DNA of 64,000 nucleotides from Thermodesulfobacteriota bacterium (GTDB taxonomy: Bacteria; Desulfobacterota_D; UBA1144; Nemesobacterales; UBA2774). A program made the position numbers and the translations under genes. The notes under the pieces were generated by a model that saw only the letters and a program-made list of their open reading frames with translations, searched no databases and was not told the origin of the DNA. The first letter of the stretch is position 1; each line of letters opens with the position of its first letter. This document shows positions 11,878 to 54,573 of this stretch, in pieces. The DNA is taken from assembly GCA_965216785.1 (NCBI GenBank), contig OZ244197.1, forward strand, positions 2,688,001-2,752,000. The letters run 5' to 3'.

Positions 11878-11917
11878 AAAAACCGGAGTGACGGCGGTCT
11901 AGCCGCCGCTCACCCGG
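11878..11917 (-). terminator. Intrinsic terminator downstream of msrB
   Basis: Minus strand CCGGGTGAGCGGCGGCTAGACCGCCGTCACTCCGG followed by TTTTT. Confidence 0.7.
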
Positions 11918-12009
11918 CTCTTAAGAAGGTATAGAGAGAATGAATATCGGGGGTTATTACTAGCTTTCATAAATTACTCGGAATCTTTGAATGACAGCTC
12001 TATATTTTC

Positions 12010-12606: not shown

Positions 12607-13176
12607 TTAGTTGGGTAATACGACTGTGTCTATAACGTGTATAACGCCGTTTGACTGAATAACATCATAGGTAGTTATATTTGCCGTGTTACCGTTTTCA
12701 TCTTTTAGCACGACGTTGTTCGGGCCGTTCATCCACGCTGTAAGCGTTCCTCCGCTTGCGGTTTTGAACTCTGCCTGTCCGCCGCCCTGCTCGATCTTCT
12801 TGGATATAGCTCTGAAATCAAGGCTCCCCGGCACTACGTGATAGGTAAGTACCTTTGTAAGAGTCTCCTTGTTCTCAGGCTTGAGAAGTGTCTCTACCGT
12901 GCCCTCGGGAAGGTTCTCGAAAGCGTCGTTGGTAGGGGCGAATACTGTAAACGGACCGGGGCTCTTTAGGGTTTCAACAAGTCCTGCAGCCTGAACCGCG
13001 GCTACGAGTGTGGTGTGGTCCTTTGAATTTACGGCATTATCAACGATGTCCTTTGTAGGGAACATGGCCTCGCCGCCAACCATTACTGTATTTGCGGAAA
13101 AGGCCTGGCTTCCGCCGATTGTAAACATTGCCGCCACTATGAGCAGCATGAAGAATCTTTTAACTGTTGTGTGCAT
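12607..13176 (-). CDS. Fasciclin (FAS1) domain secreted protein
   Basis: TLVAAVQAAGLVETL, GPFTVFAPTN.AF, LTYHVV and NGVIHVIDTV motifs. Confidence 0.95.
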   Translation of the reverse strand: MHTTVKRFFMLLIVAAMFTIGGSQAFSANTVMVGGEAMFPTKDIVDNAVNSKDHTTLVAAVQAAGLVETLKSPGPFTVFAPTNDAFENLPEGTVETLLKPENKETLTKVLTYHVVPGSLDFRAISKKIEQGGGQAEFKTASGGTLTAWMNGPNNVVLKDENGNTANITTYDVIQSNGVIHVIDTVVLPN

Positions 13177-13210: not shown

Positions 13211-13237
13211 TACGACAGGCGTGAGTGGTTTGGAGCA
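13211..13237 (-). promoter_or_regulatory. ECF-type promoter for fasciclin-msrB
   Basis: Minus strand TGCTCC-N17-CGTA. Confidence 0.7.
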
Positions 13238-13308: not shown

Positions 13309-13372
13309 AAAAAAAGCCCGATTAAGCGAATAACCGGGCTTCATGTAAGGATGGTATAGGGGTGTATACAGT
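13309..13372 (-). ncRNA. Candidate ECF-dependent small RNA (about 65 nt)
   Basis: Promoter TGATCT-N16-CGTA at 13378-13403, then a CU-rich stretch CCCCTATACCATCCTT and terminator AGCCCG-loop-CGGGCT-T7 at 13309-13340. No usable ORF in between. Confidence 0.5.
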
Positions 13373-13377
13373 ATTCT

Positions 13378-13403
13378 TACGCCGGATAAGCGCATTTAGA
13401 TCA
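13378..13403 (-). promoter_or_regulatory. ECF-type promoter (candidate sRNA)
   Basis: Minus strand TGATCT-N16-CGTA. Confidence 0.6.
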
Positions 13404-13470: not shown

Positions 13471-14052
13471 TCAGGCAAGAATCTCGTTTTCCTGAGAGGA
13501 CATAACCAATAGCAAGCACCCGTTTTCGGTGGAGATGGCTTCGTGGACGCTGCTGGCGTCCGCTCTTATATAGTCACCGACGCCGAACTTATGGCCGCCC
13601 ATGTTGATATCGCCCTCTATTATATAGCATTCTTCATCTTCAGCGTGTACGTGATCCGGGAAAGTAGCTCCCGCGTCCATGCTCACTAGCACGGTAGAGT
13701 ACTTGCGCTCGGAGTCTTCATAGAGCTGCTTTACTCTGACTCCGTTAATGATCTCTACCCATTGACCTTCATTTTGCCGTACATATAAAAATCCTTTGTC
13801 CTTATCAGAACTCTCGCGGTGTTCCCGGATTTCGGCAAAAAGCTTCTCCTCAAGCCCCGGAGGTTCTCCCTGTGGCTTGGTATTATAGGTAAGGTCGTCC
13901 ACTATCTCTTTAAAATATTCGAGATGCACGGATGCCTGGCTATCCTCTTTCAACATAACCTCGAACTCCGCCTTCTCCTCTTCACTTAAAATGCCAAGCG
14001 CATAGGATGCGGCTAAATCCTGGATATCTTCATCAGTGTACTTCTGCGCCAT
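13471..14052 (-). CDS. Anti-sigma factor with C-terminal ChrR-like cupin domain
   Basis: N-terminal DLAASYALG.L..EE...FE anti-sigma helix; cupin motifs PDHVH...EECYIIEG and GDYI.A..SSVH. Overlaps the 3' end of the sigma gene. Confidence 0.85.
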   Translation of the reverse strand: MAQKYTDEDIQDLAASYALGILSEEEKAEFEVMLKEDSQASVHLEYFKEIVDDLTYNTKPQGEPPGLEEKLFAEIREHRESSDKDKGFLYVRQNEGQWVEIINGVRVKQLYEDSERKYSTVLVSMDAGATFPDHVHAEDEECYIIEGDINMGGHKFGVGDYIRADASSVHEAISTENGCLLLVMSSQENEILA

Positions 14053-14731
14053 ATGAACGTCCTTGCTCTTCTTTAATTATATTCTTCAGTTTAACCATTG
14101 CAACCCTGATAGTGCTTTTGACCGACCCGACGGGTATGCCCACTTTCTCGGCAATCTCGCTATGACTGAACTGGTGGTAGTAGGAGAGCTCCATAACTTC
14201 TTTCTGTTTGGATGTAAGCTGAGACATAGCGTTTCTCATTATCTTTCTTCTCTCAGATGCTATGTAGGTGTCCTCCGGGTTATCGGTGCTCGTCACCAGA
14301 CTTTCGTCAATGCTATCATCTATTTGCACTGCTCTTGCGCTTTTTCTAATCTTATCAATTGCGCGGGTTCTGGTTATCATTAACAGCCAGCTTAACGGTT
14401 TGCTCAATCCTCTGTCATACCGAGACGCGTTTTTCCAGACATACATAAATACCTCGAGCGCCACTTCCTCAGCCTCTTCAGAGTTAGATATGACCCTGTG
14501 CGACATGCCGTAAACGAGTCTTACTGTCTTTTTATAAAACTCCCTCATCGCACCTTCATCACCTTGTGAAATTTGCGTCAGAAGAAGCTCTAACTCGTTT
14601 TGTTCGTTCGTATGCTCCGATTGAGAAGCCTCTGTTTCAGGACTCATAGTCTTATTGTAACTATCTATTGGACTTATCTTACTTCCGCCTATCTTCGTAC
14701 TCATATTAGCACACTCAGTATTAAATTCCAA
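14033..14731 (-). CDS. ECF RNA polymerase sigma-70 factor (SigK/RpoE-like)
   Basis: AEEVALEVF..VWK.A..YD, WL..ITRTRAID and SHSEIAEK.GIPVGSVKS.IR. Exact start uncertain (14731, 14704 or 14647). Confidence 0.92.
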   Translation of the reverse strand: MEFNTECANMSTKIGGSKISPIDSYNKTMSPETEASQSEHTNEQNELELLLTQISQGDEGAMREFYKKTVRLVYGMSHRVISNSEEAEEVALEVFMYVWKNASRYDRGLSKPLSWLLMITRTRAIDKIRKSARAVQIDDSIDESLVTSTDNPEDTYIASERRKIMRNAMSQLTSKQKEVMELSYYHQFSHSEIAEKVGIPVGSVKSTIRVAMVKLKNIIKEEQGRSYGAEVH

Positions 14732-14773: not shown

Positions 14774-15007
14774 TTACTCGTCGACTTGAGCAAAAAACCT
14801 TTCTTCAAGCCCCCGGGGTTCCTCTTCGGGCTCTGTATTATAAGCGAGGTCTTCCATAATCTCTTTGAAGTATTCCAGATGCAACGATGCTCGGCTATCC
14901 TTTTTGAGCATAGCCTCAAACTTTGCTTTTTCCTCTCTACTCAGTATTCCCAGAGCATAGGAAGCAGCTAAATCCTGAACCTCTTCATCTGTATACTTGC
15001 GCGTCAT
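14774..15007 (-). CDS. Truncated paralog of the anti-sigma factor (anti-sigma domain only, 77 aa)
   Basis: MTRKYTDEEVQDLAASYALGILSREEKAKFEAMLKKDS is nearly identical to the N-terminus of 13471-14052. It stops before the cupin domain. Confidence 0.7.
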   Translation of the reverse strand: MTRKYTDEEVQDLAASYALGILSREEKAKFEAMLKKDSRASLHLEYFKEIMEDLAYNTEPEEEPRGLEERFFAQVDE

Positions 15008-15073
15008 ATAATCTTCCCTGATCAATATTAATTATATTCCCCGGTTACCACTGTCACCCTGATAGCGCTTTTG
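15008..15073 (-). pseudogene. Relic of an ECF sigma 3' end, co-duplicated with the anti-sigma N-terminus
   Basis: TAATTATATTC...CACCCTGATAGCGCTTTTG matches 14074-14120 (TAATTATATTC...AACCCTGATAGTGCTTTTG) with indels. Confidence 0.65.
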
Positions 15074-15210: not shown

Positions 15211-15807
15211 TTACCCGCGATTTTCGAATATTGCGAGCGTATTTCTGAGTTTGTCCTTGGCGAGTCTGAGCGTGCTTTTCACAGAACCAACGGGTATATC
15301 CAGCATTTCAGCAATCTCAGACTGGTTAAACTGTGAGAAGTAGGCAAGCTCTACGACCCTCCTCTGCTTTGGGCTTAGCCCTGAAAGCGAGTCGAGCACA
15401 ATCTGCCGCATCTCAAGGCCCATCACCGTGTCCTCAGGGCTGAGCCCGGTATCTGATAACTCCCCCTCAAGAGCGTCCGGGAGATCAATAGACGGCTTTC
15501 TTCTGCGGAGCTTATCGATCGCGCGCGAGCGCGTCAGCATAACGAGCCAGGTCGAAGGGTTACTCTGATCCGGGTCGTAGCCCGATGCGCTCTTCCAGAC
15601 ATATTTATATACATCCAGCACTACTTCTTCCGCATCGTCCTTATCGCTAAGGATCTGAAGCGCCAGGCTGTAGAGAAGCCTGTTAGTTTCGTCGTATAGT
15701 TTGCCGAGAGAGTCTTCGTCACCTTCTGCAATAAGGGCTATCAAACCCCGCCACCTGAGATTCCTGTTAGTAGAAGATTCGGATTTGTTGTCCATATCTT
15801 GAGACAT
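15211..15807 (-). CDS. Second ECF sigma-70 factor (SigK-like)
   Basis: AEEVVLDVY..VWKSA..YD, WLVMLTRSRAID and QSEIAEMLDIPVGSVKS.LR. Paralog of 14033-14731. Confidence 0.92.
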   Translation of the reverse strand: MSQDMDNKSESSTNRNLRWRGLIALIAEGDEDSLGKLYDETNRLLYSLALQILSDKDDAEEVVLDVYKYVWKSASGYDPDQSNPSTWLVMLTRSRAIDKLRRRKPSIDLPDALEGELSDTGLSPEDTVMGLEMRQIVLDSLSGLSPKQRRVVELAYFSQFNQSEIAEMLDIPVGSVKSTLRLAKDKLRNTLAIFENRG

Positions 15808-15940: not shown

Positions 15941-16022
15941 TACATCAAGTAATATAGAAAGAAGTTTTGGTTAATTGTACTTTCAAGTATCAAGATGTAC
16001 CATATTACGAAAGAGGTTAAGT

Positions 16023-16841
16023 ATGCCTTACGACGAACGAGTACAAGAGTTGATCTCAGCATATTCACTAGGCGTGCTGGACGGTGAAGACCTAAAAGAG
16101 CTAGAAGATTTTCTCGCAAAAAACCCAGGTGTATATAATGATCTGCTCAGGGAGAACGAAGAAGCGTTCTCACAGCTCTCCTATGTGGTAAAGGGCGGTA
16201 GCCCGTCTCCAGAGCTCCGTACTAAGCTCTTAAATGAAGTGAAAGCCTCTGAGAAGGAGATCCCAGCACAAGAGAGCCCCGCACCCTTCTGGGAGAGGCT
16301 GCAGCCCCTCTGGCTGGGACTGGGAAGCGCGGCTGCGGTTGTCATTATAGCTCTTCTGATCGGCTACAATATATCCCTTAGCAACAGACTCAATGACCAG
16401 CTTGCGCAGAATCAAAACCTTGAAAACCAGCTCTTAGAGCAGCAAACCGAACTTGCAGCGCTTGAAAAAGTGCTTGGAACTCAGAGTGAAGCTCTGGCAT
16501 TTCTCGAAAACCCCAATGTCGTCATTATTAATATGGTCAAGACCGAGCCCGGTTTGAAGGCTGTGGGTAGAATGCTCTGGAATACGGAAGATGATGAAGC
16601 GCTATTTTACGGAATTAATCTCCCGCAAATTCCGGAAGGAAAGACCTATCAGTTATGGGCAATCGCAGGAGACGTGCCCAAAAATGCTGGAGTGTTTCAG
16701 GTAGACAGCGAAGGCAATAACCACCATGTTATAAAATCCTTAAGCGACTTCGGCGACATCAGCACGTTTGCGGTGAGCCTCGAGCCCGCGGGCGGAGTCC
16801 CCTCACCTACCGGCGAGATTTACTTAGCAGGTGAAATATAG
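16023..16841 (+). CDS. RskA-family transmembrane anti-sigma factor
   Basis: ELISAYSLGVLD N-terminus, one TM helix, coiled coil, and C-terminal LP..PEGKTYQLWAI and FAVSLEPAGG...PTG. Start ATG 16023. Confidence 0.9.
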   Translation: MPYDERVQELISAYSLGVLDGEDLKELEDFLAKNPGVYNDLLRENEEAFSQLSYVVKGGSPSPELRTKLLNEVKASEKEIPAQESPAPFWERLQPLWLGLGSAAAVVIIALLIGYNISLSNRLNDQLAQNQNLENQLLEQQTELAALEKVLGTQSEALAFLENPNVVIINMVKTEPGLKAVGRMLWNTEDDEALFYGINLPQIPEGKTYQLWAIAGDVPKNAGVFQVDSEGNNHHVIKSLSDFGDISTFAVSLEPAGGVPSPTGEIYLAGEI

Positions 16842-31716: not shown

Positions 31717-33762
31717 TTATTTTTTAGGTTCTACCATCAAATACCCCATCATCTCGAGATGAAGGGCAGAGCAAAACTCGGTGCAGTAAAACGGGTACAC
31801 ACCCGGCTTATCCGCTGTGAATTTAACCGTGCTGCTCTCCCCGGGCTCAAGGCTCAGGTTTACGTTGTACCCATCTATAGCAAACCCATGTGTAGCGTCT
31901 CTTGCCCGCTCGACACTTGTTATGTGCAAGATCACTTCGTCTCCTTCGTTCACTGTTATATGCTCAGGATTAAAGTGACTTCTGATAGCGGTCATCCAAA
32001 CTTCGACCGTGCCGTTATTGCGGACAATCTTTTCCTCCCCAACTTTTGCGGCATTGGGGTTTACGCTCATCGTAGCCGGGTTCCAACCCACCTCGGGATA
32101 TACGATATAAGGATCGAGCTTATCGGCCTTCACCATTTGCACGTAGTGGGGCTCACCCACTCCGATAGGCATATCGTAAAGGAGCTGCATTTTATCGCCC
32201 GATACGTCTATAAGCTGGAAGTTCTGAGGAAGAAGCGGCCCTACAGGACTAAAGCGGTCTATCGACCATTTGTTCAAGGCAACGCAGTATTTACCGTCAG
32301 GAGACACAGTATCGCCCTCGGCGCAGACCGTATGCCCTATGTTATAGTGAACAGGGATCTTCTCTGTCAGCGTCCACGCTTCCTCACCCTCATTGTAAGG
32401 AGGGCCTAGCTTCCACTTAGCAAGGGTGCTTTCGATAAATACGCTCGTATAGGCGTTACCGTCTGCATCAAACTGAGTGTGCAGCGGCCCCAGACCAATC
32501 TCCAGCTGTGCGGCAACTACGTCGTTGTAGTTAAGTATCGGCACACCGTAGGGGTCTTCACCCTCAAAATTTTTGTCTTTAATCGCGGTTTGAATCTTAT
32601 CGAACCCGTATATAGTTGCGTGTGTATCCAGTTTTCCGGATACGACAAGATAATCTCCTCCGGGTGCTACATCTACACCGTGAGGACTCTTGGGCTCCGG
32701 TATAAAGTATAAGAGCCCTTCCTCTATCGCTACATCTAGGGGTATTACATTTGCTCCGCTTATCTCTTTTGTTTTTCCAGACTTGGCTACCTGAATAGCT
32801 TTCTCCAAGTTAACCACGTGCATGTAATCCATATCCCTCTGTGACACGCCAGCTTCAAATGGAGGATTACCGGACTCGATTCCGCCCGTGGCGAGCTCAG
32901 TGTTTATCGAGTTACAGAATACCCATCCCTCACTTACCTTCTTACCTGCATCACAAAGGTCCTGCCAATAGGGCGGCAATTCCATCTGGAAGCTTTCTGA
33001 CTCTATGATACGCCCCTTATCGCGGTCGAATTTATGGAATACGATAAGTCCCCGGTACTTATCCTGATATTCATCAAGTGGCGCGAATTCATGAAACGGC
33101 AGCGGTGTTCCGTATTGCGAGGCCTGGATTATCCACTCCGTATCAGGTGTAACAAAAGTAGATCCGTGATCCGATATAAGGTTAGGCGTCTTCACCATCT
33201 GCTTGGTCTCAAAGTCCCTTAAGTCGATAACGGCGACTCTTGCGTTAGCTTTATCATTAATAAACAGCCATTCACCGTCGTACTCTCCGTCCGTTTCGCT
33301 GAGCGCAGGGTGGTGCGTATCTGCCCAGCTCAGTTCTCTGTCAGTACCGATAGGCATATAACCCGATTTCAAAATACTTTCCGATTCCTCTGAGCCGTAC
33401 CCAAACCCCTGCCAGGGCTCCGGCGTGAATGCTGCGATAACTTTCAGAAGACGCATCGAAGGCACGCCTATTACATATACCTGACCCGAATGTCCCCCTG
33501 ATGAGAACATAATATAATCGTCGTGCTTACCCGAAGGCACATATGTTTTAAGAGCCGCGGTAATATTTTCAGGCGTAAGCCCTCTTTCCTTGGCTATTTC
33601 CTGCGCATCCTGAGGCAACCCTCCGTTTTGCTTGGCTGCAGAGGATGTATCTTGTTTACTGCCTGTCTCCTGCTCGCCGCCAGAGCTACACGAAATCATT
33701 AACCCTGCGGCAAATAACGAAAGAAGCAAAGTACTAAATAACCAAACTTTCCCTTTATTCAT
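31717..33762 (-). CDS. nosZ: Sec-dependent (clade II) nitrous oxide reductase, lipoprotein-type signal
   Basis: No twin-Arg; lipobox LMISC. Seven CuZ His (DTHH, DHG, PHG, LHT, GHT, EPH) and CuA motif H...CTEFCSALHLEM. Confidence 0.97.
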   Translation of the reverse strand: MNKGKVWLFSTLLLSLFAAGLMISCSSGGEQETGSKQDTSSAAKQNGGLPQDAQEIAKERGLTPENITAALKTYVPSGKHDDYIMFSSGGHSGQVYVIGVPSMRLLKVIAAFTPEPWQGFGYGSEESESILKSGYMPIGTDRELSWADTHHPALSETDGEYDGEWLFINDKANARVAVIDLRDFETKQMVKTPNLISDHGSTFVTPDTEWIIQASQYGTPLPFHEFAPLDEYQDKYRGLIVFHKFDRDKGRIIESESFQMELPPYWQDLCDAGKKVSEGWVFCNSINTELATGGIESGNPPFEAGVSQRDMDYMHVVNLEKAIQVAKSGKTKEISGANVIPLDVAIEEGLLYFIPEPKSPHGVDVAPGGDYLVVSGKLDTHATIYGFDKIQTAIKDKNFEGEDPYGVPILNYNDVVAAQLEIGLGPLHTQFDADGNAYTSVFIESTLAKWKLGPPYNEGEEAWTLTEKIPVHYNIGHTVCAEGDTVSPDGKYCVALNKWSIDRFSPVGPLLPQNFQLIDVSGDKMQLLYDMPIGVGEPHYVQMVKADKLDPYIVYPEVGWNPATMSVNPNAAKVGEEKIVRNNGTVEVWMTAIRSHFNPEHITVNEGDEVILHITSVERARDATHGFAIDGYNVNLSLEPGESSTVKFTADKPGVYPFYCTEFCSALHLEMMGYLMVEPKK

Positions 33763-33791
33763 GACTTACTACCTCCCTTGCGTTAATTACT

Positions 33792-34172
33792 TTATTTACT
33801 TTTCGAATCTTCATATTTGAGATAAACAATGATCTCGTCTACTTCCTCGTCCGTAAGGCCCTGGTTCGGCATAGGGACGAAGTATTCTTTAAGCATCTCT
33901 TTTGCTATCGGGTCTGTCATAATCATCGTATCCGGACTCTTTAGCCACTTCTTAAGCCACTCCTCTTCTCTTCTTTCCGTTACACCTGCAAGATCAGGTC
34001 CCGAGAGCTTACCTCCCCCGATTGTATGGCATGCCGGACAACCCTTTTCTTTAAATACAGCCTCTCCCTTCTCTGCGCTTTTACTATCTTCACTATATGC
34101 GGGGTTCTGTAGCAAGATTGCCGAAATTACGACTAAAAAAGTGATTGTTAAAGAATATAAAACCAGTCTCAT
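33792..34172 (-). CDS. Monoheme cytochrome c (NosC-like electron donor)
   Basis: Signal peptide, CPACH, GPDL and MPN; first gene of the nos operon. Confidence 0.88.
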   Translation of the reverse strand: MRLVLYSLTITFLVVISAILLQNPAYSEDSKSAEKGEAVFKEKGCPACHTIGGGKLSGPDLAGVTERREEEWLKKWLKSPDTMIMTDPIAKEMLKEYFVPMPNQGLTDEEVDEIIVYLKYEDSKSK

Positions 34173-34214
34173 CCTATTCCCTCCGTAGCTAAACGAATAT
34201 TATCCAATACATGA

Positions 34215-34229
34215 GCAAAATAGGTGCCA
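34215..34229 (-). promoter_or_regulatory. sigma54 promoter of the nos operon
   Basis: Minus strand TGGCACCTATTTTGC. Candidate enhancer at 34273-34296. Confidence 0.82.
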
Positions 34230-34411
34230 AGCCGAAGCCCTACTATTCATTGAATTTTAATATTGTAAGAAATGTCAGATGTCTTGTATTCGTACACTTA
34301 ATAAATGTAAATGTAAGTTGCTTCTTTTCTCTGCACAGAAGCAAACCTGCCCTGTTTAAGTATGTTTTAGTTTTTACTAAGAGATAGCGCGTTAAATAGC
34401 AGAGAAATAGT

Positions 34412-34448
34412 AAAAAAAATAGGGCATCCATCCTGAGGATGCCCTATT
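34412..34448 (-). terminator. Intrinsic terminator after the outer-membrane barrel gene
   Basis: Minus strand ATAGGGCATCC-loop-GGATGCCCTAT followed by a T8 run. Confidence 0.85.
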
Positions 34449-34494
34449 GGTTGAGAGGGAGAAGCCTGTTTAGGCTTCTGGAGAAAATGAGAGA

Positions 34495-35346
34495 TTAGAA
34501 TCTAAACCCTAGTCTTCCACCGTAGGTTCCAAAAGAGCCGTTATTTCTGTCTACGTAGTTATAACGTCCTTCTGCGCCTACGAATATCTTTTTCGTGATA
34601 TTAAAATCAATTCCGCCTCCCAGATGAAGTCCCAACTCAGCACTGCCCTGTCCTGACGGGTAACCTCGCTTCTGCAGAACACCGGGCTGTGGTGCGATAC
34701 CACCCACCTGACTTCCCGGATCACTCTTGTTAAGAAAGATGTTAAACCCAGGTCCACCCATTACGAAGGGCTGAACAATATGGTGAGCTTCCACTTTATA
34801 TTTCAATCCGAGCAGGATTGTGACTGTATCCAGCGTAACACTGGTTTGAGTCGGTAAAGCACCTGGTGAGAGGGCATTTACAGTCGGCTCGAACGTTAGG
34901 TCATCATCAGTTCTAGCCCATCCTATATTAATCAGACCCATCAGTTTTCCAGGTCCTAAATTCTTGTACAGCGGCAATCCAAGCTCACCCGCCATATAAA
35001 AGCCGGTGCCTGTCTTGAAGGGTCCAGTCTGAGCTCCGATTACCATTGCGAACTCAGCTCCCAACGGCTGTTGCCCTTTCCTGGAGATAAAATCCTGTAT
35101 TTTGGCCTCAGATTCCTGCATCTGGGCCTGACTGGCTGCTTTTTCGTTCTCCAGCTGTTCTATCCTCTGCATCAACAATTCATTCTGTCTGCGGTTCTCC
35201 TCATTTTGCCTGTTGTTTTGCTCAATCATCTGTTTGAGCTCCTGTATTTGCTGATCGCTTGCGGCATGAGCATCATAAGACATTAAGCCCAGCGGTCCGG
35301 CTAACAACATAAGCAACGCAAACGCTAATAAGAATGTTCTTGGCAT
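34495..35346 (-). CDS. Outer-membrane beta-barrel (OmpA/OmpW-like) protein with N-terminal coiled coil
   Basis: Signal peptide, Gln/Glu-rich coiled coil, QPFVMGGPG, GGGIDFNI..KIFVGAEGRYNY and terminal RLGFRF. Confidence 0.75.
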   Translation of the reverse strand: MPRTFLLAFALLMLLAGPLGLMSYDAHAASDQQIQELKQMIEQNNRQNEENRRQNELLMQRIEQLENEKAASQAQMQESEAKIQDFISRKGQQPLGAEFAMVIGAQTGPFKTGTGFYMAGELGLPLYKNLGPGKLMGLINIGWARTDDDLTFEPTVNALSPGALPTQTSVTLDTVTILLGLKYKVEAHHIVQPFVMGGPGFNIFLNKSDPGSQVGGIAPQPGVLQKRGYPSGQGSAELGLHLGGGIDFNITKKIFVGAEGRYNYVDRNNGSFGTYGGRLGFRF

Positions 35347-35388
35347 CCTTCTATACCTCCTCTTGGTTTTTTATAAATCAGACAAAGA

Positions 35389-54271: not shown

Positions 54272-54363
54272 GGAGAGGTGACCGAGCGGCCGAAGGTGCA
54301 CGCCTGGAAAGCGTGTAGGGGGTTTACGCTCCCTCGAGGGTTCGAATCCCTCCCTCTCCGCCA
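54272..54363 (+). tRNA. tRNA-Ser (anticodon GGA)
   Basis: Acceptor GGAGAGG/CCTCTCC, anticodon arm CACGC-CTGGAAA-GCGTG, long variable arm, GGTTCGAATCC and encoded CCA. Confidence 0.97.

Positions 54364-54467: not shown

Positions 54468-54573
<106 letters not shown>

What the first reader, a model, noticed from the sequence alone, without database searches (positions are those of the whole stretch)
13309..13403. Candidate ECF-dependent small RNA with an anti-Shine-Dalgarno seed
An ECF promoter (13378-13403, minus strand) is followed within about 65 nt by an intrinsic terminator (13309-13340). The downstream fasciclin gene has its own promoter, so this unit has no evident coding target. The transcript is an unstructured CU-rich 5' part (CCCCUAUACCAUCCUUAC) plus the terminator hairpin, which is the usual layout of a base-pairing sRNA. 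The seed could pair with the RBS of the barrel gene at 35351-35362 (GAGGAGGUAUAG) with one bulge. By analogy, ECF-controlled sRNAs such as RybB/MicA and Rhodobacter Pos19 act as the repressor arm of the regulon.
Basis: partly seen in the sequence, partly recalled or inferred. Interest (0 to 1): 0.7.

Follow-up and report, generated by a model that had tools for sequence, protein, structure and literature searches.

The report
Small RNA left by deleted gene
A stress-type promoter and a terminator frame a 64-base stretch conserved in three related Dadabacteria; it is likely the 3' tail of a lost small-protein gene, kept as a small RNA that is predicted to mask ribosome-binding sites, but neither the transcript nor any target has been shown.

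Summary
Promoter (TGATCT-N16-CGTA, 13403-13378), terminator (13342-13309) and the bulged match to the barrel RBS are all in the sequence. The unit is conserved in three lineages: 19 of 21 core bases invariant, against 14 of 52 fourfold sites and 6 of 16 spacer bases. In three relatives the same promoter drives a 92-aa secreted-type protein gene. A tree makes that gene ancestral and lost twice; only this clade kept its 3' tail. A model of the unit finds that family's 3' UTRs as its seven best outside hits, then a sibling with the same seed under another promoter. A related CAUCCUCCAUCCUCC unit occurs in 55 of 101 genomes of the order. No Rfam family; no Hfq, CsrA or ProQ found; KhpA/B present. 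Against: no RNA evidence, only three copies, this genome's copy has lost CCUCC, and no target beats shuffled seeds, the barrel gene included. Verdict: likely a base-pairing sRNA born the OxyS way; target unknown.

The parts
13378..13403 (-). ECF promoter, -35 TGATCT (13403-13398), 16-nt spacer, -10 CGTA (13381-13378); in G007, G010 and G021 the same promoter drives a 92-aa secreted-type protein gene
   Evidence: same boxes as the Shewanella RpoE2-ChrR promoters in PMC4336711 (passages)
13309..13372 (-). predicted sRNA, about 64 nt; start inferred 6-8 nt after the -10 box; no start codon-to-stop ORF inside
   Evidence: (90% mean column identity over three copies); no RNA evidence
13345..13369 (-). 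conserved CU-rich core with the predicted seed; the family form is CCUAUACCAUCCUCC, this genome has CCUAUACCAUCCUUAC
   Evidence: 19 of 21 invariant over 13369-13349; same seed in the sibling
13309..13342 (-). intrinsic terminator, 12-pair stem and U run; alike in sequence to terminators of the small secreted-protein genes
13471..14052 (-). anti-sigma factor with a ChrR cupin domain
   Evidence: PF12973 E 1.8e-20; below NCBIfam cut-offs
14033..14731 (-). ECF sigma factor (best profile SigK-like, below cut-off); likely reader of the promoter
   Evidence: the link to the promoter is inferred
13211..13237 (-). separate ECF promoter of the fasciclin-msrB genes, TGCTCC-N17-CGTA
12607..13176 (-). 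fasciclin-domain gene downstream of the unit
   Evidence: PF02469 E 3e-32
35351..35362 (-).

Best explanation
The unit is likely a stand-alone small RNA, probably transcribed by the neighbouring ChrR-controlled ECF sigma factor, that likely arose when a small secreted-protein gene was deleted from between its promoter and its 3' UTR, and whose CU-rich seed is predicted to pair over GGAGG-type ribosome-binding sites and lower their translation. Shown in sequence: promoter boxes, terminator, conservation of the core, the gene in the same slot in relatives, likeness to that gene family's 3' UTRs, and siblings with the same seed. Inferred: transcription, which of the two local sigma factors reads it, the deletion history, base-pairing as the mode of action, repression, and a chaperone role for KhpA/B. 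The inducing stress is probably oxidative, from the ChrR cupin and msrB next door. The targets are unknown; mRNAs of exported proteins are the best guess.
For: (1) Core 19 of 21 invariant in G000, G001 and L095, against 14 of 52 fourfold sites in chrR, 6 of 16 spacer bases and 3 of 30 upstream bases (window chosen after seeing the alignment). (2) G007, G010 and G021 have promoter, RBS, a 92-aa gene and a CC(C)ATACCCC tail in this slot. The sigma+ChrR tree places gene-bearing genomes at the base of both clades, with the three stand-alone copies together (96/95) and six promoter-only genomes together (87/88). (3) Model R1 over 101 genomes: the 7 best outside hits (E 3e-8 to 2e-5) are 3' UTRs of that gene family, 6 by tblastn and 1 read by eye at a contig end. 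The copy near chrR in G028, another family, scores 26.9 bits. (4) A second stand-alone unit with the seed CCTATACCATCCTCC follows a TGAATCC-type promoter in 7 genomes of two other genera, with a one-change form in G000, G001 and G002. (5) CCATCCT and ATCCTCC are among the four most enriched 7-mers before 475 strong terminator-like sites in G000 (8 vs 0.74 and 9 vs 1.16 expected). (6) Precedents: OxyS arose from a peroxidase 3' end and kept its regulator (PMC8825220, passages); FoxI/FoxJ are sigmaE-dependent, C-stretch-seeded repressors in a species without Hfq (PMC9546586, PMC11005410, passages).
Against: No RNA contig covers the unit; the data are too thin to say anything. Only three copies were found, and none in G002 of the same genus (82% complete). 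This genome's copy has changed CCUCC to CCUUAC. No target stands out: best -18.6 kcal/mol against -13.1 to -23.3 for 12 shuffles. The multi-LysM gene whose RBS fits the seed in 13 of 25 orthologues has lost the fit in all three genus-g1 genomes. R1 does not score the 3' UTRs of the nearest syntenic genes in G007, G010 and G021, so descent from that exact gene rests on synteny and a short motif. Eight g3 genomes keep the promoter with no conserved RNA behind it, so promoter retention alone proves nothing. The tree has 15 rows, G028 was left out, and G001 is represented by ChrR only.
Confidence: 0.62

Rival explanations
1. The RNA is made and matters, but works by binding a protein or another RNA (KhpA/B ligand, decoy, or a 3'-end stability element inherited from the mRNA) rather than by blocking ribosome-binding sites.
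For: The motif always sits just before a terminator, both in mRNA tails and in stand-alone units. No specific mRNA target emerges. KhpA and KhpB are encoded; Hfq, CsrA and ProQ were not found.
Against: The family seed ends in CCUCC, and the sigma70-type siblings in CCUCCUUU, like the 16S 3' end of this genome, which is what pairing with SD sites would select. A pure stability element would have nothing to protect in a 64-nt unit.
Confidence: 0.15
2. It is a relic. The hairpin is kept only to end the sigma/anti-sigma operon transcript, and the promoter and CU stretch are leftovers of the deleted gene that are slowly decaying.
For: No other strong hairpin with a U run was found between chrR and this one. 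The promoter survives without any RNA in 8 g3 genomes. G000 has lost CCUCC. No transcript was seen.
Against: The unpaired core is far better kept than fourfold sites, spacer or flanks, and termination does not need it. The same seed is kept in a non-syntenic sibling across three genera.
Confidence: 0.13
3. The conserved core is a DNA operator (inverted repeat GTATA-N6-TATAC just after the start site), or a leader that controls read-through into fasciclin-msrB.
For: The inverted repeat is in the sequence and overlaps +1 to +20. A CsoR/RcnR-family repressor gene exists; such repressors bind C/G-tract operators (recalled). In g3 the promoter has no terminator behind it and could feed the operon.
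Against: The repeat is broken in L095. No second GTATA-N6-TATAC site lies between genes. The palindrome before the csoR-family gene, ATACCTAGGTAT, is different. The terminator hairpin persists in the minimum-energy fold of the whole leader and in the 12 near-optimal folds printed. Fasciclin has its own promoter. The 3' half of the core matches mRNA tails elsewhere.
Confidence: 0.1

Closest known systems
OxyS of Enterobacteriaceae (origin; PMC8825220, passages read)
   Same: An sRNA in the slot of a former protein gene, made from its 3' end and terminator, still under the parent's regulator.
   Different: No sequence relation (no Rfam match). Here an ECF sigma factor rather than OxyR, no coding remnant seen, and the parent family survives as five paralogues in the same genome.
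FoxI and FoxJ of Fusobacterium nucleatum (function; PMC9546586, PMC11005410, passages read)
   Same: ECF-dependent sRNAs with a C-rich seed that pair across SD sites of envelope-protein mRNAs, in a species without Hfq; KhpA/B present (PMC11039985, search listing only).
   Different: Homology not tested; unrelated phylum. Different promoter type. No target or induction shown here.
Pos19 of Rhodobacter sphaeroides (PMC5036791, passages read)
   Same: sRNA in an RpoE-ChrR-type regulon; the promoter boxes match the RpoE2-ChrR type (PMC4336711).
   Different: Pos19 is 219 nt, carries a translated small ORF and needs Hfq; this unit is about 64 nt, has no ORF, and no Hfq was found.
Cuckoo/CcsR RNAs of Alphaproteobacteria (PMC4615179, PMC8034643, search listing only)
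   Same: Multi-copy RNAs with an anti-SD-like C/U motif.
   Different: Their motif is CCUCCUCCC in repeated hairpin loops (structure recalled). Here a single linear CCAUCCUCC-type stretch precedes the terminator. No Rfam match.
3' UTR-derived sRNAs such as UhpU (PMC12704781, abstract and start of introduction)
   Same: Seed plus terminator in an mRNA tail, later given independent transcription; an RNase E/G gene is present.
   Different: UhpU gained an internal promoter with its gene intact; here the gene appears to have been deleted. Processing of the tails is untested.

Membership tests
Any Rfam 15 family | match at or above the gathering score | tested here: not met
   Whole window gives only SRP and a tRNA. 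The unit's region L155 has no match at E <= 5, and all 20 matches in the 15 regions scanned are below gathering.
ECF-dependent trans-acting sRNA (FoxI/RybB/MicA kind) | ECF promoter directly before a short non-coding unit with an intrinsic terminator | tested here: met
ECF-dependent trans-acting sRNA (FoxI/RybB/MicA kind) | conserved, largely single-stranded seed | tested here: met
   19 of 21 invariant; the AUCCU/ACCU part is unpaired in all three folds, the 5' half is partly paired in two
ECF-dependent trans-acting sRNA (FoxI/RybB/MicA kind) | a short transcript that depends on the sigma factor | tested here: inconclusive
   Four runs laid, contigs only; the two RNA runs touch fasciclin/msrB at low depth and not the unit
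ECF-dependent trans-acting sRNA (FoxI/RybB/MicA kind) | conserved pairing with specific mRNA targets | tested here: inconclusive
   No target beats shuffled seeds. The best candidate RBS, of a small acidic lipoprotein, is kept in G000, G001, G007 and G096, but was picked after the fact.
Hfq-dependent sRNA (RybB, MicA, Pos19) | Hfq in the genome | tested here: not met
   PF17209 not found in G000 (one contig, 92% complete)
sRNA derived from a protein gene's 3' end (OxyS route) | parent gene in the same slot behind the same promoter in relatives | tested here: met
   G007, G010, G021; basal in both clades
sRNA derived from a protein gene's 3' end (OxyS route) | sequence likeness to the parent's 3' end | tested here: inconclusive
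   Met for paralogous tails and for G028; not detected by the model for the three nearest syntenic tails
Cuckoo/CcsR RNA | CCUCCUCCC motif in tandem hairpin loops | tested here: not met
   motif and repeated hairpins absent; no Rfam match
CsoR/RcnR operator | likeness to the repressor gene's own upstream palindrome and recurrence elsewhere | tested here: not met

The most novel reading that the evidence does not exclude
Dadabacteria run an undescribed, Hfq-free network of 16S-tail mimics. One cassette (CCAUCCUCC-type seed plus terminator) rides in the 3' UTRs of a small secreted-protein family and has been freed more than once as stand-alone RNAs under different sigma factors (two ECF types, sigma70, sigma54-like). 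Each stress would then damp translation of a broad class of strong-SD mRNAs for exported proteins, rather than a few specific targets. This unit is a birth event caught beside a sister clade that lost both gene and tail.
Probability: 0.25. Interest if true: 0.72.

Novelty: new variant of a known kind. Interest (0 to 1): 0.52.

Why it matters
It would be a first regulatory RNA family for Dadabacteria: none turned up in Rfam, in three paper searches or in this scan's notes. It gives a clean comparative case of an sRNA born from an mRNA tail: gene present in three genera, lost twice, tail conserved in one clade and gone in the other. That argues the tail had a job of its own before the gene went, a question PMC8825220 leaves open for OxyS (two routes, Fig. 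7 legend). It also adds a second Hfq-less lineage in which to test whether KhpA/B serve C-rich sRNAs. The limits are real: uncultured host, three copies, no transcript, no target.

Tried and rejected
Barrel gene as target: pairing is real but not singled out. Its RBS is kept in G002, where the unit was not found, and differs in G021, G099, G097 and G007. LysM gene at G000:355086 as target: top of the accessibility ranking, but no exact copy of its RBS 15-mer among the listed matches in 32 relatives (16 matches not listed). Multi-LysM gene as target: RBS fits in 13 of 25 orthologues with a start found (5 of 30 loci had none) but in 0 of 3 genus-g1 genomes, and fasciclin spacers are as well conserved, so spacer conservation is no evidence. 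Signal-peptide enrichment among GGAGGAT RBS genes (45 of 86 vs 202 of 562, p 0.004): crude predictor, paralogues not collapsed, extension chosen after the fact; a hint only. Small ORF: a 42-aa frame crosses the unit in G000 but is not kept in G001. Antisense SD+ATG in the sigma70-type siblings opens only 2-7 codons (read). RNA runs: nothing on the unit or on one sibling; uninformative. Genome-collection pattern scan: 16 matches, 1 true copy (not counted as independent); 5 others checked had no terminator, 10 not checked. Viral scan: 29 exact 15-mers, not examined, plausibly chance. The small protein has no Pfam family and no Atlas hit above 0.78. One search used wrong coordinates (part of ChrR) and was repeated. 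Target ranking used my own ORF calls and RNAduplex, not IntaRNA or CopraRNA. No supplements were read; those of PMC8825220 list further cases.

Full report
Observation. On the minus strand, 13403-13378 reads TGATCT-N16-CGTA, followed by about 30 CU-rich bases and a 12-pair hairpin with a U run ending at 13309. The same promoter pattern occurs three more times nearby: before the sigma operon (15158), fasciclin (13237) and the DUF4331 gene (11826). It has 50 matches genome-wide, 9 of them intergenic. The locus is ECF sigma, ChrR-cupin anti-sigma, the unit, fasciclin, msrB, DUF4331 and a TPR gene. The boxes match the RpoE2-ChrR promoters of Shewanella (PMC4336711, passages). A second ECF sigma with a divergent RskA-type anti-sigma lies just upstream, so which sigma reads the promoter is open. 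The one named genome record that carries the unit is titled Candidatus Dadabacteria, which agrees with an earlier scan note on this genome. Rfam has no family for it.

Conservation. Three copies were found: G000, G001 (same genus) and metagenome locus L095, the only match to a promoter-plus-core pattern. Their ChrR proteins are 77-81% identical to G000's. In chrR, 14 of 52 fourfold sites are the same in all three; in the promoter spacer 6 of 16; in the 30 bases upstream 3 of 30; in the core of the unit 19 of 21 (nominal binomial p 2e-9, window chosen after seeing the alignment). The transcribed part has 90% mean column identity. G001 and L095 end the core in CCUCC; G000 has CCUUAC, so the window's copy is the odd one. 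A small 5' hairpin is predicted in two of three copies, without covariation.

Origin. Of 101 genomes of the order, 15 have a close ChrR homologue (E below 1e-50). In G007, G010 and G021 the slot holds the same promoter, an RBS, a 92-aa protein with a hydrophobic N-terminus and two FGV motifs, then CC(C)ATACCCC, and in G007 and G021 a GAAGCC-stem terminator. In six other g3 genomes, plus two seen from the fasciclin side, the promoter is kept but nothing behind it is conserved. Two of these eight carry a bare CCTCC, and none of the six tested scores with the model (best E 0.18). A sigma+ChrR tree of 15 rows gives (G007,(G021,(G000,G001,L095))) and (G010,(six promoter-only)); supports are 93/92, 81/67, 96/95, 99/99 and 87/88, drawn from the midpoint with three rows of another family apart. 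The simplest reading is a gene present in the ancestor and lost twice. G028 was left out of the tree; it has the gene downstream of chrR and a further sigma gene.

Homology to the gene's tail. A covariance model built from the three copies alone hit 26 of 101 genomes at E <= 0.05, 34 places; I inspected 24 of them. The seven best outside hits (E 3e-8 to 2e-5) start 4-11 bases after the stop codon of paralogues of the small protein, with both the CU stretch and the terminator alike. A local profile search over 205 held loci gave the same top hits. G028's tail scores 26.9 bits, but the tails in G007, G010 and G021 do not score. So family-level descent is well supported, and descent from the exact syntenic copy less so. 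An ATCCTCC-like motif lies within 100 bases after 11 of 34 family genes, against 83 of 2987 ORFs in G000 (motif chosen from those sequences).

Siblings. The next tier of hits is a different stand-alone unit with the seed CCTATACCATCCTCC behind a TGAATCC-type promoter, in G094, G019, G010, G093, G096, G007 and G004. Its counterpart in G000 (genome 741305, minus), G001 and G002 reads CCTATACCCTCCTCC. G000 also has three units with CATCCTCCATCCTCCTTTAA behind TTGACA promoters, two behind TTGGCA-N5-TTGC (sigma54-like, recalled) boxes, and several in 3' UTRs. The 15-mer CATCCTCCATCCTCC occurs in 55 of 101 genomes, 1-4 copies each, with 0 control matches; it is absent from 36 of 37 genomes of one family. 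Of 30 loci read, 29 show a TTGAC-like promoter or its downstream half, the motif and a strong hairpin. CCATCCT and ATCCTCC are among the four most enriched 7-mers before strong terminator-like sites in G000. The 16S 3' end here reads GATCACCTCCTTTT.

Targets. The best hit of the real seed (-18.6) lies inside the range of 12 shuffles (-13.1 to -23.3). The top short-seed hit is a 97-aa acidic lipoprotein whose RBS AGGAGGTATAGG is kept in G000, G001, G007 and G096. That 12-mer occurs in 26 of 33 family genomes, mostly before a multi-LysM gene, but that gene has lost the match in all three g1 genomes, and RBS spacers are generally well conserved in this family. No target can be named.

Machinery and expression. 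Hfq, CsrA and ProQ were not found in G000 (92% complete). KhpA, KhpB and RNase E/G are present. Two metatranscriptome runs touch fasciclin and msrB at low depth and miss the unit; contigs cannot show a 64-nt RNA, so this is uninformative.

Mechanism. Most likely (0.62): stress releases the sigma factor from ChrR; it transcribes fasciclin-msrB, DUF4331-TPR and this short RNA; the RNA's seed pairs over SD regions and lowers translation. Rivals are a protein-binding or decoy RNA (0.15), a relic with a useful terminator (0.13) and an operator or leader (0.10).

Comparison. It likely works like FoxI/FoxJ (PMC9546586, PMC11005410, passages) and likely arose like OxyS (PMC8825220, passages). It is not a member of any Rfam family, of the Hfq-dependent class or of the cuckoo family. 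Searches for Dadabacteria with small RNA (2 unrelated papers), for CCAUCCUCC (8 eukaryotic papers) and a wider one (none of 15 listed mention Dadabacteria) found no description; the library lacks most subscription papers. Verdict: a real, conserved element and probably an sRNA; a new variant of a known kind; interest 0.52.

Noticed in passing
G000 genome 954584(+), 1076804(+), 1734030(-); L112-L141: Order-wide sibling units: TTGACA promoter with a conserved TTAAG...CTTAA motif, then CATCCTCCATCCTCCTTTAA and a strong terminator; 55 of 101 genomes, control 0; no Rfam family. Probably the larger discovery.
   Followed up: partly
G000 genome 741305(-); L215-L217, L219-L222, L224: Second stand-alone sibling with the same seed behind a TGAATCC-N17-(T)ATC/TCTA promoter, the promoter type also seen before many paralogues of the small secreted protein.
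   Followed up: partly
G000 genome 489355(+), 2111096(+), 631358(-), 2139813(+): Further CU-motif-plus-terminator units; the first two follow TTGGCA-N5-TTGC sigma54-like boxes.
   Followed up: no
L065 1501-1776; G000 genome 698091, 2105592, 2115942, 2120855, 2127777: Undescribed ~90-aa secreted-type protein family with two FGV motifs, in 45 of 101 genomes of the order, often several copies; no Pfam family.
   Followed up: partly
window about 11880-11945 (-): After msrB, a CU-rich stretch (CTCTCTATACCTTCTT) before a strong terminator resembles the seed; possibly another tail-embedded copy.
   Followed up: no
window 14774-15025 (-), 15211-15807 (-), 15975-16841 (+): A truncated duplicate of the anti-sigma N-terminus (71% identical over 77 aa) sits between two SigK-like sigma genes; an RskA-type anti-sigma is divergent.
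   Followed up: no
L039, L040, L041, L043, L044, L045, L006, L009: In g3 genomes an AT-rich TATATTACATAT-like stretch is conserved between the orphan promoter and the fasciclin promoter; possible operator.
   Followed up: no
window 31717-35346 (-): The barrel gene heads a cluster with a cytochrome c and a nitrous oxide reductase gene (PF18764).
   Followed up: no
G000 genome 2121793(+): The only other copy of ACACCCCTATA is antisense to the RBS of a 107-aa gene next to a small-protein paralogue; may be chance.
   Followed up: partly
L296-L325: The RBS AGGAGGTATAGG of a ~900-aa multi-LysM gene is kept across genera g2, g3, g5 and g6 but altered in g1; a candidate target for the g3/g6 sibling rather than for this unit.
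   Followed up: partly
window 54272-54360, 54474-54570 (+): A tRNA and the small SRP RNA.
   Followed up: no
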